Shown one piece after another: positions 40,644-58,460 of a stretch of 64,000 nucleotides of DNA. Positions within the stretch are counted from its first letter, which is position 1, and each line of letters starts with the position of its first letter. Location of the stretch: positions 913-64,912 of the forward strand of contig JAHIOW010000066.1 of assembly GCA_018895075.1 (NCBI GenBank), given 5' to 3'. The translations under genes and the position numbers were made by a program. This DNA comes from Candidatus Omnitrophota bacterium. GTDB taxonomy: Bacteria > Omnitrophota > Gorgyraeia > Gygaellales > Profunditerraquicolaceae. The notes beneath the pieces are model-generated. The model ran no database searches and was not told where the DNA came from. It saw only the letters and a program-made list of their open reading frames with translations.

Positions 40644-41570
40644 TTAATTAGGAGGGATTACCTTTTTGGCAAGAGCAACGTCTTTTTTTATCTGTTCTGC
40701 TAAGTCCTGGTGGCAGGCGAATCTTTTTTCACCTCTTATCCTTTTTATAAACTCAATCTCTAAATTTTTGCCGTAGATACTTTTCTTAAAATTAAATATA
40801 TGCACTTCAATACATTTAGTTTTCTGCTTAACAGGGAAAGAATGATTCTTAAAGGCTGACTTTCTGCCAATGTAGCAGACACCGTTTAATTTCTTATTAT
40901 TAAATATAACCTTCACCGTATACACACCTGAAGGTGGCAGTATTTCATGGTGGGGATTTATATTAGCAGTAGGAAACCCTAGCCCTCTACCCAGAGAAAC
41001 CCCCTTGATCACACTGCCCATGACAGCCACCGGGTGACAAAGCAGTCTCTGCGCAGACGCCAGGTCTCCTCTGCTAATCAATCTACGTACGTAGGTACTA
41101 CTTATGGGCTTATGGTTTATCTTGATTACATCAAATACCTTTAATTTAAAATTGTAGATCCTAGATAACCTATCTAAAGTCTTAAAATTACCCTTTGTTG
41201 CCTTTCCAAATCTAAAGTTCTTGCCCACGCATATATAATGGGCACCGATCTTTCTCATCAAAATATCTTTTATAAAATCTCCCGCTAGAATCCTAGAGAA
41301 TTCCTTATTAAATTTCATAACTATACACACCTCTATGCCGAGTTGGCTGATTAGTTTCAAACGGTGTTCTAAAGAATACAAGCTGCCTTCTTTCTGGGGA
41401 TGGGGCCAGAATGTAACTACTATGCTCTTGCCTTTTATACGGCGTGAAAGCCTTACTACATACTTCAATATCTGCCTATGGGCACGGTGCATCCCGTCGA
41501 ATATACCTAAGGCAACAACCGGCTTTCTATATCTCCTAATCCCCCTAAACCCAAATATTATTTTCATCAA
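40644..41570 (-). CDS. ribF: Bifunctional riboflavin kinase / FMN adenylyltransferase
   Basis: ALGIFDGMHRAH FAD-synthetase motif. C-terminal riboflavin kinase domain. Confidence 0.9.
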   Translation of the reverse strand: MMKIIFGFRGIRRYRKPVVALGIFDGMHRAHRQILKYVVRLSRRIKGKSIVVTFWPHPQKEGSLYSLEHRLKLISQLGIEVCIVMKFNKEFSRILAGDFIKDILMRKIGAHYICVGKNFRFGKATKGNFKTLDRLSRIYNFKLKVFDVIKINHKPISSTYVRRLISRGDLASAQRLLCHPVAVMGSVIKGVSLGRGLGFPTANINPHHEILPPSGVYTVKVIFNNKKLNGVCYIGRKSAFKNHSFPVKQKTKCIEVHIFNFKKSIYGKNLEIEFIKRIRGEKRFACHQDLAEQIKKDVALAKKVIPPN

Positions 41571-41589
41571 TCATACCCCTTAGCGTGTC

Positions 41590-41880
41590 TGTCCCTGCCT
41601 GCCGGCAGGCAGGGGGTTCCTCGGACGCCCTGCTCGAAATCAAGCCAAGCCAACCCCGCTAAGAAAACTTTGTCTAATTACTATGATGTCTTTGATTTTA
41701 GGGTTCTTGCTGGAGCGCGCATTAGGATTTTTTCGGCAAAGGTGCGCAAGGCTTTACGATGAGCGAAGGTCGTGCGTGTCGAAAGGCGCCTCCGAAAGCG
41801 AAGAGTAAACCGTAGCGCACGGCGAAAAAATCCAGCGCGCGCAAGACAAAACCCTGAAATCAACGTCTCATTGAACGAGA
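41590..41880. ncRNA. Candidate GC-rich structured ncRNA (long imperfect hairpin about 190 nt; 6S-like architecture); strand unresolved
   Basis: GC content is far above local background. Arms of about 35 nt (41701..41742 and 41821..41854) are near-perfect reverse complements (GGGUUUUGUCUUGCGCGCGCUGGAUUUUUUCGCC vs GGCGAAAAAAUCC..GCGCGC..GCAAGAACCC), and the stem continues inward (GUGCGC/GCGCAC). Only Arg-rich, artefact-like ORFs occur here. Confidence 0.3.
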
Positions 41881-41892
41881 AAATCGCCAGGT

Positions 41893-42906
41893 TCATTTTA
41901 GGCTTTCCCGGATTTTGGCTAAGACCCTTTTTCTTACCTCGTCTATCTTGCCTTCAATAGTGCAACCGCTGGCAGTCTTATGTCCCCCGCCGCCAAAGAA
42001 TTGGGCAATTTTATTGACATCAACCTTGCCTTGGGACCTAAAATTTACCCTTACCTCATTTTTTTGGTCTAAATTCTCTTTAAATAAAACTGCTACTTCT
42101 ACATCCTTTATGGCGCGGGCAAAACTTAATATATATTCGCTTAAATCAAAAGATATTTTTTTATTTTTAATTAAACTCTGTTTTACTTCAAACCATGCGA
42201 CCTTTCCGTTAAAGTCTCTTCTTACAGTACTTTGTATTTTATTCAATAACCGCATATCCTCAAAAGCTATATTCTCATATACATTTTTATAAACCCCCAC
42301 TACATCTAAATTAAACTTCAGGAGTTCTGATGCTATCTTATGCGTTAAACTACTCGTATTAGAATGACGGAATGAACCGGTATCGGTAAGTATGCCCGCA
42401 TATAAAAGCATGGCTATGTCTTTATTCAAGGTAACGCCTAAGCCTTTATAAAGTTTATAAATCATCTGACAGCAGGATGAAGAATCTGGCTCTATCCAGT
42501 TTATATTGCCAAACCTTTCATTACTTATATGATGGTCAATATTAAGGATGGGCTTATCTTTAGTATTTAACTTAGAAACCTCACCGCATCTTCCCAGGTT
42601 CGAACAGTCTAGAGTTACGAAACAATCAAATTCTATATCTTTTAGGTTCTTCTTTGCGCCCTTGGCGGATTCGCCTTCGGCGAAAAATTTCCGATTAAGC
42701 TTTTCTATATTGTTTATCCCGGGTAAGAAATAATATTCGGTAGGGGTATTATCTTGATTTACAATAGTAGCCTGTTTACCTATTGCCTTAAGAAGCCTAT
42801 AGAAAGACAGCTCGGAGCCTAGGGCATCTGCCTCTAAATTTGTATGGCTGGTAATGAGAAAATTATTATTGCCTCTTATACAGGCTATTGCCTTTTTTAG
42901 ACTCAT
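41893..42906 (-). CDS. nrnA: DHH/DHHA1-family bifunctional oligoribonuclease / pAp phosphatase
   Basis: DHH-family motifs (SHTNLEADALGS, NIDHHISN) and the C-terminal DHHA1 GGGH motif (FGGGGHKTASG). Confidence 0.75.
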   Translation of the reverse strand: MSLKKAIACIRGNNNFLITSHTNLEADALGSELSFYRLLKAIGKQATIVNQDNTPTEYYFLPGINNIEKLNRKFFAEGESAKGAKKNLKDIEFDCFVTLDCSNLGRCGEVSKLNTKDKPILNIDHHISNERFGNINWIEPDSSSCCQMIYKLYKGLGVTLNKDIAMLLYAGILTDTGSFRHSNTSSLTHKIASELLKFNLDVVGVYKNVYENIAFEDMRLLNKIQSTVRRDFNGKVAWFEVKQSLIKNKKISFDLSEYILSFARAIKDVEVAVLFKENLDQKNEVRVNFRSQGKVDVNKIAQFFGGGGHKTASGCTIEGKIDEVRKRVLAKIRESLK

Positions 42907-43243
42907 TGGATTTTTTTATCTCATCCAGTATTTCTTGTATCTTAACGCTGTGTTCACTAGACCTATCCTCTTTAAAGATTAGCTCCGGTGCAAATCTTAA
43001 TCTGATTCTCTGAGCAATTAATCTGCGAATAAATCCCAATGCTGAATCCAGAGCCTGGCGCGTTTTTTGATAATCCTGGTTCTGACCTAAGACGCTGAAA
43101 AATACCTTAGCCAATCTTAAATCCGGAGTCAATTCAACCTTGGTAACCGTAATAAATCCTAAACGGGGATCTTTTAATTCGCCATGTATTATACTGCTGA
43201 TTTCTTTTTTTATTGCCTTATTGATTTTTTCCTGCCTTGACAT
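42866..43243 (-). CDS. rbfA: Ribosome-binding factor A
   Basis: KH-like RbfA fold, ...ELKDPRLGFITVTKVELTPDLRLAKVFFSV. Confidence 0.85.
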   Translation of the reverse strand: MSRQEKINKAIKKEISSIIHGELKDPRLGFITVTKVELTPDLRLAKVFFSVLGQNQDYQKTRQALDSALGFIRRLIAQRIRLRFAPELIFKEDRSSEHSVKIQEILDEIKKSNESKKGNSLYKRQ

Positions 43244-43273
43244 TTAAATTCTCTCTTTCTAAAATATATTGCT

Positions 43274-43294
43274 CCCTGCCTGCCGGCAGGCAGG
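43274..43294. repeat. GC-rich perfect palindrome CCCTGCCTGCCGGCAGGCAGG (copy 2 of 3), a terminator-like hairpin after cca
   Basis: Identical palindrome at 41594..41613 and a variant at 46822..46842. The genome around it is AT-rich. Confidence 0.6.
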
Positions 43295-43300
43295 CATAAC

Positions 43301-46312: not shown

Positions 46313-48855
<2,543 letters not shown>

Positions 48856-58264: not shown

Positions 58265-58460
58265 GGAAATCTTCTCCCATCTAGACTTTGCATCCAATCC
58301 TATTTGTTGGATTGGTGTCCGCTTATGCGGAACTATCGGCTCTGGAATTGACCAGATCTACCCCACACCCAGAAACCCATAGCCTTATTTTTGCTGGCTG
58401 GGTGTGGGGCTCGCGGGCTAAACCGCCGGTCAGGACTTTCACCTTACCCCGAAGATTAAC
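58265..58460 (-). promoter_or_regulatory. FMN riboswitch (RFN element) in the ribBA leader, carrying a ~70-nt insertion in its variable P3 region
   Basis: Minus strand reads CUUCGGGGUAAGGUGAAAGUCCUGACCGGCGGUUUAGCCCGCGAGCC...CCGCAUAAGCGG...GGAUUGGAUGCAAAGUCUAGAUGGGAGAAGA. It matches the conserved FMN aptamer blocks (GGGCAGGGUGAAAUUCCCGACCGGCGGUAGUAAAGC... and GCCGACAGUGAAAGUCUGGAUGGGAGAAGGA). Confidence 0.8.

What the first reader, a model, noticed from the sequence alone, without database searches (positions are those of the whole stretch)
41571..41892. 320-nt GC-rich, highly structured non-coding element occupying the slot where truB is normally found (rbfA-nrnA-[?]-ribF)
In most bacteria rbfA, truB and ribF are contiguous. 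Here nrnA and then a 322-nt gap lie between rbfA and ribF, with no truB. The gap is conspicuously GC-rich in an AT-rich genome and yields only Arg-rich artefact ORFs on both strands. It contains two ~35-nt arms that are near-perfect inverted repeats enclosing ~80 nt whose ends pair again (GUGCGC/GCGCAC). The result is an extended hairpin of more than 40 bp with internal loops, reminiscent of 6S RNA or another long-hairpin sRNA. One end carries the CCTGCCTGCCGGCAGGCAGG palindrome, which recurs at 43274 and 46822. I cannot place it in a known family (no RNase P, tmRNA or SRP signature blocks).
Basis: partly seen in the sequence, partly recalled or inferred. Interest (0 to 1): 0.55.

Follow-up and report, generated by a model that had tools for sequence, protein, structure and literature searches.

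The report
Dispersed palindromic repeat, not an sRNA gene
The GC-rich hairpin between nrnA and ribF is real, but it is one copy of an undescribed hairpin-forming DNA repeat scattered through Omnitrophota genomes (up to 19 copies per genome), not a single-copy 6S-like RNA gene standing in for truB.

Summary
Window 41571-41892 is a non-coding gap between nrnA and ribF, with about 52% GC in a 40% GC window. It contains a 184-nt rod-like hairpin (41686-41869, gene strand) that folds better than shuffles, and Rfam has no match.

The interpretation does not hold. The hairpin core (TTCGCCGTGCGCNNNGGTTTAC) occurs 109 times in 43 species-representative genomes, almost all Candidatus Omnitrophota, with 19 and 16 copies in two MAGs. 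Of the 109 copies, 28 lie within 200 nt of a contig end (4 expected). Copies are intergenic and occur in both orientations.

Orthologous sites are filled, empty or decayed in different species. Relatives have nrnA directly abutting ribF, so truB is absent clade-wide and independently of the element.

The arms co-vary strongly but almost only Watson-Crick to Watson-Crick (G-U 42 versus A-C 33 cells). This points to a DNA-level palindrome rather than a strand-specific RNA.

I found no target-site duplication, no conserved terminal repeats and no neighbouring transposase.

Best reading: a non-autonomous, MITE/REPIN-like palindromic element of a new family, old and vertically retained at this locus. 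The 3' third of the gap is a short copy of a second repeat module.

The parts
41686..41869 (-). 'H' element: 184-nt rod-like hairpin, one copy of a dispersed palindromic repeat family
   Evidence: A covariance model built from 15 family members scores it at 148.9 bits, E = 2.4e-32, and it is the only copy in the 64 kb window. Inverted repeats are; fold z = -3.4 (RNA) and -4.5 (DNA).
41805..41826 (-). 5' core TTCGCCGTGCGCTACGGTTTAC (5' strands of helices P4 GUGCGC and P5 GGUUUAC)
   Evidence: This is the pattern used for the collection scans: 109 copies in 43 genomes and 120 or more metagenome loci. It is identical in the orthologous copy of L003.
41731..41758 (-). 3' core CGTAAAGCCTTGCGCAC...TGCCGAAA (3' strands of P5 and P4, start of P3)
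   Evidence: Invariant or nearly invariant columns in a 51-sequence MAFFT alignment, although not part of the search pattern. The P4/P5 pairs are 98-100% kept.
41759..41804 (-). Apical variable region (P6) with pyrimidine-rich internal loops
   Evidence: Variable in length and sequence between subfamilies. The pairs at its base co-vary (GC 30 / AU 12). It is a site of nested hairpin insertions in other copies.
41827..41869 (-). 5' outer arm (P1-P3), pairing with 41686-41730
   Evidence: In the family, the outer helices show every Watson-Crick pair type with 10-39 double-sided changes per pair. Cognate arms pair at -42.6 kcal/mol against -21.8 for non-cognate arms. The orthologue L003 has compensatory changes: GCGCGC/GCGCGC to GGCCGC/GCGGCC, and GGATTTTTT/AAAAAATCC to GAAAATTTT/AAAATTTTC.
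41870..41896 (-). Conserved flank ATGAACCTGGCGATTTTCTCGTTCAAT overlapping the nrnA stop codon
   Evidence: Present after the nrnA stop in L006, which lacks the hairpin, and in L003. Its inverted copy (GCGAAAATCGCCAGGTTCAT) lies 3' of the hairpin in L003, L010 and L108 but is missing in the window.
41575..41665 (-). Short copy of a second repeat module ('O'): CUUAGCG...CGCUAAG closing stem, GATTTCGAGCAGGGCG motif, apical loop-less palindrome
   Evidence: The motif GATT(T)CGAGCRGG occurs 15 times in the fetched DNA, usually about 55 nt upstream of type-B H copies. Longer O copies follow H in L003, L010, L089 and L090, and also occur without H. There is no Rfam match. The fold alone is not significant, z = -1.5.
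41593..41614 (.). Loop-less palindrome CCCTGCCTGCC|GGCAGGCAGGG at the apex of the O-like module
   Evidence: In type-B copies, H sits exactly at the dyad centre of similar palindromes: CCCTGCCTC|GAGGCAGGG, CCCTGGC|GCCAGGG, CCTGCAGG|CCTGCAGG.
43273..43294 (.). Second copy of the palindrome, between the cca stop and the rbfA start
46822..46842 (.). Third, imperfect copy of the palindrome, just after the ligA stop
41893..42906 (-). nrnA-like DHH/DHHA1 gene (upstream neighbour)
   Evidence: Pfam DHH 1.6e-18, DHHA1 6.6e-12. Homologues are named NrnA in Candidatus Omnitrophota.
40644..41570 (-). ribF (downstream neighbour)
   Evidence: Pfam FAD_syn 6.2e-38, Flavokinase 1.3e-35.

Best explanation
The gap is filled by repeat DNA, not by an RNA gene. 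Its main part (41686-41869) is one copy of 'H', a roughly 180-220-bp non-autonomous palindromic element found in many Candidatus Omnitrophota genomes.

H has a conserved, asymmetric inner core: helices GUGCGC/GCGCAC and GGUUUAC/GUAAA-CC, flanked by fixed bulges and internal loops. The core is surrounded by outer arms that differ between subfamilies and copies but stay complementary.

Inferred mechanism. The element is propagated at the DNA level, most likely as a folded single strand or cruciform whose core is recognised by an enzyme encoded elsewhere in the genome. It lands in very short intergenic spacers, often at the dyad of short palindromes or hairpin tips, without duplicating the target. 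It then persists for long periods at the same locus.

The window copy is an old, vertically inherited insertion. It is shared with a relative whose NrnA is 71% identical, and it is decayed or lost in others. It now sits in the rbfA-nrnA-ribF transcription unit and would fold into a long hairpin if transcribed. The ribF-proximal third of the gap is a short copy of a second repeat module (O).

Shown: multi-copy dispersal, structure with co-varying arms, presence/absence at orthologous sites, nesting, lack of adjacent mobility genes. Inferred: DNA-level mobility, trans-acting enzyme, target preference.
For: Copy number and dispersal
- 109 exact-core copies in 43 of the species-representative genomes, nearly all labelled Omnitrophota, with 19, 16, 7 and 7 copies in single MAGs.
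- 28 of 109 copies lie within 200 nt of a true contig end, against 4.1 expected, the signature of a repeat that breaks assemblies.
- The covariance model finds further copies with 1-2 core substitutions.

Placement
- Copies are intergenic and in both orientations: upstream gene on the same strand 50, opposite 42.

Structure
- On a MAFFT alignment, 93.8% of cells are paired against 35-54% when partners are slid; 18 of 44 pairs have double-sided changes; 0 of 500 shuffles reach this.
- On 103 model-aligned rows, 91.9% are paired against 26-61%.
- Cognate arms pair at -42.6 kcal/mol against -21.8 for non-cognate arms.

DNA level rather than RNA level
- In variable pairs there are 1144 Watson-Crick cells, 42 G-U/U-G and 33 A-C/C-A. 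Wobble pairs are rare and there is no strand asymmetry.

Insertion and loss
- L037 filled, L081 empty, L070 decayed; L049 filled, L068 empty.
- At the window's own locus: window, L005 and L003 filled; L008 empty; L006 and L007 remnants.

Nesting and target
- A variant H lies inside H in L097; extra hairpins sit at fixed points in L011, L026, L042, L065 and L079.
- Type-B copies with near-identical interiors sit at the centre of different short palindromes.

No known family
- No Rfam family, no similarity to plasmids or phages, nothing in the literature searched.
Against: - No target-site duplication and no conserved terminal inverted repeats were found, so the classical MITE signature is missing.
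- No autonomous partner was found. No transposase family recurs among the 290 nearest neighbour ORFs in 227 loci, and there are no Y1 transposases apart from one fragment beside H in L079.
- Many genomes carry only 1-2 copies of the window's subfamily (type A). These are retained at orthologous sites with compensatory changes and mostly co-oriented with the upstream gene: about 21 of 26, or 16 of 21 after collapsing one syntenic group, based on crude ORF calls. That also fits an exapted RNA-level role.
- Type A shows a slight, non-significant excess of G-U over A-C (16 versus 8).
- The apparent invariance of the 22-mer is partly a consequence of searching with it.
- MAGs are incomplete, so copy numbers are lower bounds and the source genome itself was not in the genome collection.
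Confidence: 0.6

Rival explanations
1. Exapted cis-acting RNA structure. Whatever its origin, the type-A hairpin is kept because, transcribed inside operon mRNAs just after a stop codon, it works as a processing, stability or partial-termination signal. This would resemble REP/BIME, ERIC or Correia elements in other bacteria. Here it would uncouple ribF expression from rbfA-nrnA.
For: - Type-A copies usually start 0-40 nt after the stop codon of a co-oriented upstream gene (window, L037, L049, L070/L081 group).
- They are retained at orthologous sites across species with compensatory arm changes.
- The covariance model scores the gene strand far above the other strand (148.9 against 25.1 bits), because the bulges are asymmetric.
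- The O-like module's closing stem pairs with the ribF Shine-Dalgarno region in the predicted fold.
Against: - There is no wobble-pair enrichment or strand asymmetry in the co-varying helices.
- Types B and C occur in both orientations.
- The opposite strand folds more stably in 46 of 51 copies.
- No U-tract follows the hairpin.
- The Shine-Dalgarno pairing is not conserved in L003 or L007.
- Relatives do without the element.
- No expression data are available.
Confidence: 0.2
2. Stand-alone trans-acting small RNA gene, for example a divergent 6S RNA.
For: The size is about 180 nt, the shape is rod-like with internal loops including a pyrimidine-rich central loop region, and sequence blocks are conserved.
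Against: - There is no match to Rfam 6S models or to any other family at E <= 10.
- There are up to 19 copies per genome, with contig-breaking behaviour.
- The element is absent from the same locus in close relatives.
- It occurs in both orientations relative to genes.
- The helices are Watson-Crick only.
- There is no evident promoter or terminator, and the element abuts the nrnA stop codon.
Confidence: 0.04
3. Degraded remnant of truB or another gene, or a small Arg-rich protein gene (71 codons, ATGA-coupled to nrnA).
For: An ORF 41681-41896(-) overlaps the nrnA stop by ATGA. truB commonly lies between rbfA and ribF in other phyla (general knowledge).
Against:
- Relatives have nrnA abutting ribF.
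- The ORF is not conserved in L003.
- Equivalent ORFs in other copies are translations of the palindrome in either orientation.
- Variation follows base-pairing, not codons.
Confidence: 0.01

Closest known systems
REP / REPIN elements mobilised by RAYT (Y1 HUH) transposases
   Same: Multi-copy intergenic palindromes that fold into hairpins, with no adjacent transposase. They persist at orthologous loci across species, have no classical TIR or TSD, and are probably recognised as folded single strands by a single-copy enzyme acting in trans.
   Different: H is 180-220 nt, against 20-40 nt for REP and about 100 nt for REPIN. It has a conserved asymmetric internal core rather than two identical REP arms. 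It lacks the 5' GTAG signature. The one RAYT-like gene seen (L074) is flanked by a different GTAGGG...CCCTAC REP family, not by H.
Bacterial MITEs (Correia/NEMIS, ERIC, RUP, BOX, SPRITE, QMITE, Chunjie)
   Same: Under 500 bp, non-coding, multi-copy and mostly intergenic, often in 3' UTRs. Predicted transcripts form long stable stem-loops, copy number varies between species, and elements insert into one another (review PMC10969869).
   Different: MITEs are defined by conserved terminal inverted repeats and target-site direct repeats, and usually by an IS with matching ends. In H the ends vary and the centre is conserved, no TSD was seen, no parent IS was found, and H is GC-rich in an AT-rich genome.
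IS200/IS605-family derivatives (PATEs) and other single-strand transposons
   Same: No TIR, no TSD, dependence on imperfect hairpins with fixed bulges, and strand-specific architecture.
   Different: Those elements have two different subterminal hairpins (LE and RE) and a fixed tetra- or pentanucleotide target. H is one long palindrome, and no consistent flanking target motif or linked tnpA/tnpB was found: one TnpA fragment in 227 loci.
6S RNA and other long-hairpin sRNAs
   Same: About 180 nt, an irregular rod with internal loops.
   Different: H is multi-copy, dispersed, absent from orthologous loci in relatives, has no Rfam match and has Watson-Crick-only covariation.
Folded single-strand recombination sites (integron attC; CTX-phage attP for XerCD)
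   Same: Imperfect palindromes in which structure and extrahelical bases are conserved while stems vary. H lies next to Xer-type recombinase genes in 2-3 independent cases.
   Different: There are no R''/R' GTTRRRY boxes at the ends, no cassette arrays, and the conserved part is internal. The Xer adjacency is not statistically convincing (about 0.6 expected).

Membership tests
6S RNA (Rfam RF00013 and related models) | Match to the 6S covariance models | tested here: not met
   cmscan of the gap on both strands at E <= 10, and of the whole window at gathering thresholds, gave no 6S hit.
6S RNA (Rfam RF00013 and related models) | Single-copy housekeeping gene conserved at a locus | tested here: not met
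   Up to 19 copies per genome. The element is absent from the same locus in L008, and L006 and L007 keep only remnants.
MITE | Short (<500 bp), non-coding, multi-copy, mainly intergenic (PMC10969869) | tested here: met
   Length 180-250 bp; 109 copies in 43 genomes; almost never overlapped by ORFs of 100 aa or more.
MITE | Conserved terminal inverted repeats of about 4-30 bp shared by the family | tested here: not met
   The outermost arms differ between copies with near-identical interiors, and the conserved sequence is internal. A recurrent ATGAA(C/G)C.GG...TTCAT terminus is seen in only a few copies.
MITE | Target-site direct repeats flanking young copies | tested here: not met
   None at the filled/empty junctions, and none in a crude automated screen of type-B copies whose 3' boundary was set one base off. 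By eye, the flanks of type-B copies are inverted complements instead.
MITE | Autonomous IS with matching ends in the same genomes | tested here: inconclusive
   None was seen within 8 kb of 227 copies, but whole genomes could not be searched.
REP/REPIN-RAYT | RAYT (Y1_Tnp) gene flanked by the repeat | tested here: not met
   The RAYT-like gene in L074 is flanked by GTAGGG...CCCTAC REPs, a different family. H is 1.9 kb away.
REP/REPIN-RAYT | Short imperfect palindrome with a conserved 5' GTAG | tested here: not met
   H is about 180 nt and has no terminal GTAG.
IS200/IS605-type single-strand element (PATE) | No TIR, no TSD, imperfect hairpins | tested here: met
IS200/IS605-type single-strand element (PATE) | Fixed target tetra- or pentanucleotide 5' of the left end; linked tnpA/tnpB in some copies | tested here: inconclusive
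   No common flank motif was found. One truncated Y1_Tnp lies next to H in L079, among IS3 debris, and there are none in 120 metagenome loci.
Integron attC | R''/R' core sites (RYYYAAC / GTTRRRY) at the ends; tandem cassette arrays | tested here: not met
   There are no such terminal boxes. Copies are solitary: two loci carry two copies, 5-7 kb apart.
Any Rfam 15 family | Covariance-model match | tested here: not met
   Window and gap; four relatives' loci containing H and full-length O.

The most novel reading that the evidence does not exclude
H could be the cis element of an undescribed mobility or maintenance system specific to Omnitrophota: a rod-shaped nucleic-acid module with a fixed asymmetric core, recognised by a dedicated, still unidentified protein. 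It would insert at hairpin tips or palindrome dyads without a target duplication and would nest within itself and within a second module (O).

Alternatively, H could be a domesticated structured element bound by a conserved host factor. That would explain why its core stays nearly unchanged in genomes whose orthologous proteins are only 60-70% identical.
Probability: 0.2. Interest if true: 0.75.

Novelty: new variant of a known kind. Interest (0 to 1): 0.45.

Why it matters
For annotation, intergenic GC-rich hairpins in Omnitrophota should not be called sRNA genes or riboswitches without a copy-number check. This family also explains a share of contig breaks in Omnitrophota MAGs.

For biology, H is an undescribed repeat family in a poorly studied, uncultured phylum. 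It has an unusual build: the centre is conserved, the self-complementary arms are hypervariable, there is no TIR or TSD, and copies nest inside one another and at palindrome dyads.

Identifying the protein that recognises its core could reveal a new hairpin-directed transposition or recombination mechanism. The element could also serve as a lineage marker.

At this locus the element sits in the rbfA-nrnA-ribF operon and may affect ribF expression, but that is untested.

Tried and rejected
- Rfam at gathering and permissive thresholds on the window, the gap and four related loci: nothing relevant.
- blastn of the gap against plasmid and phage collections, and a core-pattern scan of viral contigs: no hits.
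- Literature searches on Omnitrophota with repeat, hairpin, ncRNA or MITE, and on the core sequence string: nothing.
- Small-protein reading of the 71-codon ORF: rejected because it is not conserved and appears only as a palindrome artefact.
- truB remnant: no tblastn signal.
- Self-cleaving ribozyme and K-turn readings: inspected by eye only. The order and identity of the conserved blocks do not fit hammerhead, hairpin-ribozyme or K-turn consensus, and Rfam models do not match.
- RAYT/REP link: a RAYT gene exists in one related genome but is flanked by a different REP.
- IS200 link: a single TnpA fragment beside one copy, judged coincidental.
- Xer link: 2-3 independent adjacencies, not significant.
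- Recurrent-neighbour search by all-against-all clustering and by Pfam scans of 290 neighbour ORFs: only housekeeping families.
- Sense versus antisense folding energies: the strand opposite to the gene strand folds better in 46 of 51 copies. This reflects the shared core and does not identify a functional strand.
- An automated TSD and flank-complementarity script gave unclear numbers because of boundary errors. The flank statements rest on reading the printed sequences.
Full report
**What is at the coordinates.**

The window comes from a Candidatus Omnitrophota MAG (GCA_022013135.1, contig JAKLQV010000013.1). All genes around the finding are on the minus strand. In order they are ligA, an unknown ORF, a metallo-beta-lactamase-fold gene, a Xer-type recombinase, a CCA-adding/poly(A) polymerase-family gene, rbfA (42866-43243), a DHH/DHHA1 nrnA-like gene (41893-42906), the gap 41571-41892, ribF (40644-41570), mraZ and rsmH.

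The gap is 51-53% GC in a 39.8% GC window. The 184 nt at 41686-41869 fold into a rod with z = -3.4 (RNA parameters) or -4.5 (DNA parameters) against dinucleotide shuffles. The palindrome CCTGCCTGCCGGCAGGCAGG recurs exactly at 43275 and with one indel at 46822. Rfam 15 has no match in the gap on either strand, even at E <= 10.

**The locus in relatives.**

I fetched contigs encoding NrnA homologues.

- A 98%-identical relative (L005) has the same hairpin with one substitution.
- L003 (NrnA 71% identical) has a homologous hairpin in the same place. Its core blocks are identical and its arms carry compensatory changes: GCGCGC/GCGCGC becomes GGCCGC/GCGGCC, and GGATTTTTT/AAAAAATCC becomes GAAAATTTT/AAAATTTTC.
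- L006 (73%) and L007 (67%) keep only fragments of the arms.
- In L008 (66%) the nrnA stop overlaps the ribF start with nothing in between.

All of these have rbfA-nrnA-ribF and none has truB there. The 'truB slot' idea is therefore not relevant to the hairpin.

**It is a dispersed repeat.**

I scanned one genome per species (GTDB representatives) for TTCGCCGTGCGCNNNGGTTTAC, the 5' core conserved between the window and L003. This returned 107 stretches holding 109 copies in 43 genomes. All but one carry Omnitrophota labels, generic 'bacterium' labels, or 'uncultured Planctomycetales' labels on Omnitrophota-like contigs. The exception, in a Kiritimatiellae coding region, looks like a chance match.

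- Two MAGs have 19 and 16 copies, two more have 7 each, and 25 genomes have one copy.
- 28 of 109 copies lie within 200 nt of a real contig end, against 4.1 expected from the contig lengths.
- One contig (L110) has inverted copies at both ends.
- Viral contigs, plasmids and phages gave nothing.

A covariance model (R1) built from 15 copies finds only one copy in the window, at 148.9 bits. The reverse strand scores 25.1 bits. In the fetched loci, R1 finds further copies with one or two substitutions in the 22-mer. The family is therefore wider than the search pattern, and the apparent invariance of the 22-mer is partly by construction. The other core blocks (CGTAAA.CCTTGCGCAC and TGCCGAAA) were not searched for and are still invariant or nearly so.

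**Anatomy.**

Reading the gene strand 5' to 3', the element has these parts:

- A variable outer stem P1.
- An internal loop, (G)UUC opposite U(N)CA.
- P2, 5-6 bp.
- A bulge, 0-1 nt opposite UAAU/AAAU.
- P3, ending UUUUCG/CGAAAA.
- A loop, CC opposite NNNUGC, which can hold an extra hairpin.
- P4, GUGCGC/GCGCAC.
- A loop, UAC opposite UU.
- P5, GGUUUAC/GUAAA(N)CC.
- A variable apical domain P6 with pyrimidine-rich loops.

Subfamilies differ completely in P1-P3 and P6. Type A is the window's subfamily. Type B is found in the JAPLMD, JAHJQM, MNVP and JBAZEP MAGs. Type C is found in the marine MAG JAHJHP. A divergent copy in L097 has P4 as CCGGC/GCCGG, which supports that helix.

**Covariation and what it implies.**

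- On the MAFFT alignment A2, 93.8% of cells are paired against 35-54% when partners are slid. 18 of 44 pairs have changes on both sides, and 0 of 500 shuffles reach any of the measures. The structure was derived from that same alignment.
- On 103 model-aligned rows (A3), 91.9% are paired against 26-61%, with 568 double-sided cells. This alignment is fitted to the structure.
- As an alignment-free check, each copy's 5' arm pairs with its own 3' arm at -42.6 kcal/mol on average, against -21.8 for arms of other copies. The cognate arm is the best of 51 in 28 cases.

The changes are almost all Watson-Crick to Watson-Crick. In the 22 variable pairs there are 1144 Watson-Crick cells, 42 G-U/U-G and 33 A-C/C-A. 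A structure selected only in an RNA of one strand should tolerate G-U and show G-U far above A-C on that strand. Equality, and rarity of both, is what a palindrome kept complementary at the DNA level would show. Type A alone gives 16 against 8, which is not significant. I take this as the main argument for a DNA-level element, with the caveat that recent copying also keeps arms perfect.

**Evidence for insertion, loss and nesting.**

- L037 has H between a stop codon and the next gene's Shine-Dalgarno sequence, where L081 has a 10-nt spacer. L070 has a decayed copy with an internal deletion.
- L049 has H where L068 has none.
- No direct repeats flank the filled sites.
- Within one MAG (JAPLMD01), type-B copies are near-identical inside, but the bases just outside the shared ends differ and are mutually complementary: ATGAAG/CTTCAT, CCCTGGC/GCCAGGG, CCCTGCCTC/GAGGCAGGG, CCTGCAGG/CCTGCAGG. 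Similar pairs occur in other MAGs, for example TGAGC/GCTCA (L058) and CCTCCGG/CCGGAGG (L015, L099). Either H lands at the dyad of short palindromes or hairpin tips, or insertion creates an inverted copy of one flank.
- At the window's own locus, L003 carries, 3' of H, an inverted copy of AAAATGAACCTGGCGATTTTC. That sequence includes the last codons and the stop of nrnA as they read in the window. This is easier to explain by inverted flank duplication than by a pre-existing palindrome. I could not decide between the two explanations.
- Copies also contain other hairpins at fixed points. One follows GGTTTAC in L011, with GTTTAC repeated. Others sit between GTAAAT and CCTTGCGCAC in L026, L042, L065 and L079. 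L097 holds a whole variant H inside the P6 of another H.

**No mobility gene nearby.**

All-against-all clustering of ORFs in the loci shows only housekeeping families and syntenic groups. Pfam scans of the 290 nearest neighbour ORFs in 227 loci list no transposase family among the recurrent ones, only three Xer-type integrase hits. phmmer with IS200, IS608 and RAYT sequences finds one truncated Y1 transposase beside H in L079, among IS3 debris. It also finds a RAYT-like gene in L074 that is flanked by a different REP family, GTAGGG...CCCTAC. H lies next to Xer genes in two or three independent cases, against about 0.6 expected, which is not convincing.

**Orientation and persistence.**

Over all copies, the upstream gene is on the same strand in 50 cases and on the opposite strand in 42. 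These are crude ORF calls. Type-A copies are mostly co-oriented with the upstream gene (about 21 of 26) and begin 0-40 nt after its stop codon. Several type-A loci are shared by different species: six loci downstream of an amidohydrolase gene, L010/L090, and the nrnA-ribF locus. This fits long vertical persistence, as described for REPINs (my knowledge). It leaves room for an exapted role in the mRNA, which is why I give that rival 0.2.

**The rest of the gap.**

Positions 41575-41665 are a short copy of another repeat module, which I call O. It has these features:

- A closing stem CUUAGCG/CGCUAAG.
- The motif GATTTCGAGCAGGGCG, found 15 times in the fetched DNA, usually about 55 nt upstream of type-B H.
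- The loop-less palindrome at its apex.

Full-length O copies end in GAGCGTCCCTGCG.GAAACAAGACAAGGCAGACGCTAAA just before a start codon. They follow H in L003, L010, L089 and L090, and also occur without H. They have no Rfam match. In type-B copies, H sits at the apex of O. The window's three palindromes look like unoccupied apices. That is an inference, not a test.

**Verdict.**

The structure is real and uncatalogued. It is a copy of a dispersed palindromic repeat, closest in behaviour to REPIN/MITE-type elements. It fails the defining MITE tests (terminal repeats, target duplication, parent IS) and the REP/RAYT tests. I file it as a new variant of a known kind, with interest 0.45. The mobilising mechanism and any RNA-level role remain open.

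Noticed in passing
window 43273-43294 and 46822-46842 (also 41593-41614): Loop-less GC-rich palindromes CCTGCCTGCCGGCAGGCAGG sit in very short spacers right after stop codons (cca/rbfA, ligA/next ORF). Similar palindromes flank type-B H copies at their dyad, and a related one is inserted inside H in L079. They may be a small REP-like family or the preferred target of H.
   Followed up: partly
window 41575-41665; L003:2930-3125; L010, L089, L090 downstream of H; L029, L069, L078, L081 without H: A second repeat module ('O') has GAGCG-rich blocks and a conserved 3' end, AACAAGACAAGGCAGACGCTAAA, just upstream of start codons of unrelated genes. It has no Rfam match.
   Followed up: partly
window 58265-58460 (-): An FMN riboswitch (Rfam RF00050, 80.2 bits) with two unusually long insertions (39 and 47 nt) in its peripheral stems.
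   Followed up: no
window 43244-43300 versus L003:989-1270, L007:2382-2663, L008:2319-2600: Relatives carry a DUF503 gene between the cca-family gene and rbfA. The window has none there, only a 57-nt spacer holding the palindrome.
   Followed up: no
L074:1990-2550: A RAYT-like Y1_Tnp gene is flanked by GTAGGG...CCCTAC REP palindromes, one of which lies inside the gene. There are six such REPs in 8 kb. This is a separate REP/RAYT system in an Omnitrophota genome.
   Followed up: partly
L079:1487-3112: A mobile-element junkyard: IS3-family integrase fragments, a truncated IS200-type TnpA with its terminal hairpin, then an H copy that itself contains a small palindrome insertion.
   Followed up: partly
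L019:2425-3421, L176, L230:161-1100, L168, L160:7543-8764: H copies lie within 100-350 nt of Xer-type tyrosine recombinase genes (two paralogues) in 2-3 independent cases. This is more than expected but not significant.
   Followed up: partly
L110:1-7626: A 7.6-kb contig ends in inverted H copies at both ends, so the assembly broke in the repeat on each side.
   Followed up: no
window 41893-42906 and homologues: NrnA homologues come in a 337-aa form (this clade) and a 322-324-aa form. The extra residues were not located, and they are not tied to the presence of H.
   Followed up: no
L003:2880-2925, L010, L108: An inverted copy of the sequence spanning the nrnA stop codon (AAAATGAACCTGGCGATTTTC) lies 3' of H in L003. 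The same CCAGGTTCAT end occurs at unrelated loci, suggesting either a larger composite element or inverted duplication of a flank.
   Followed up: partly
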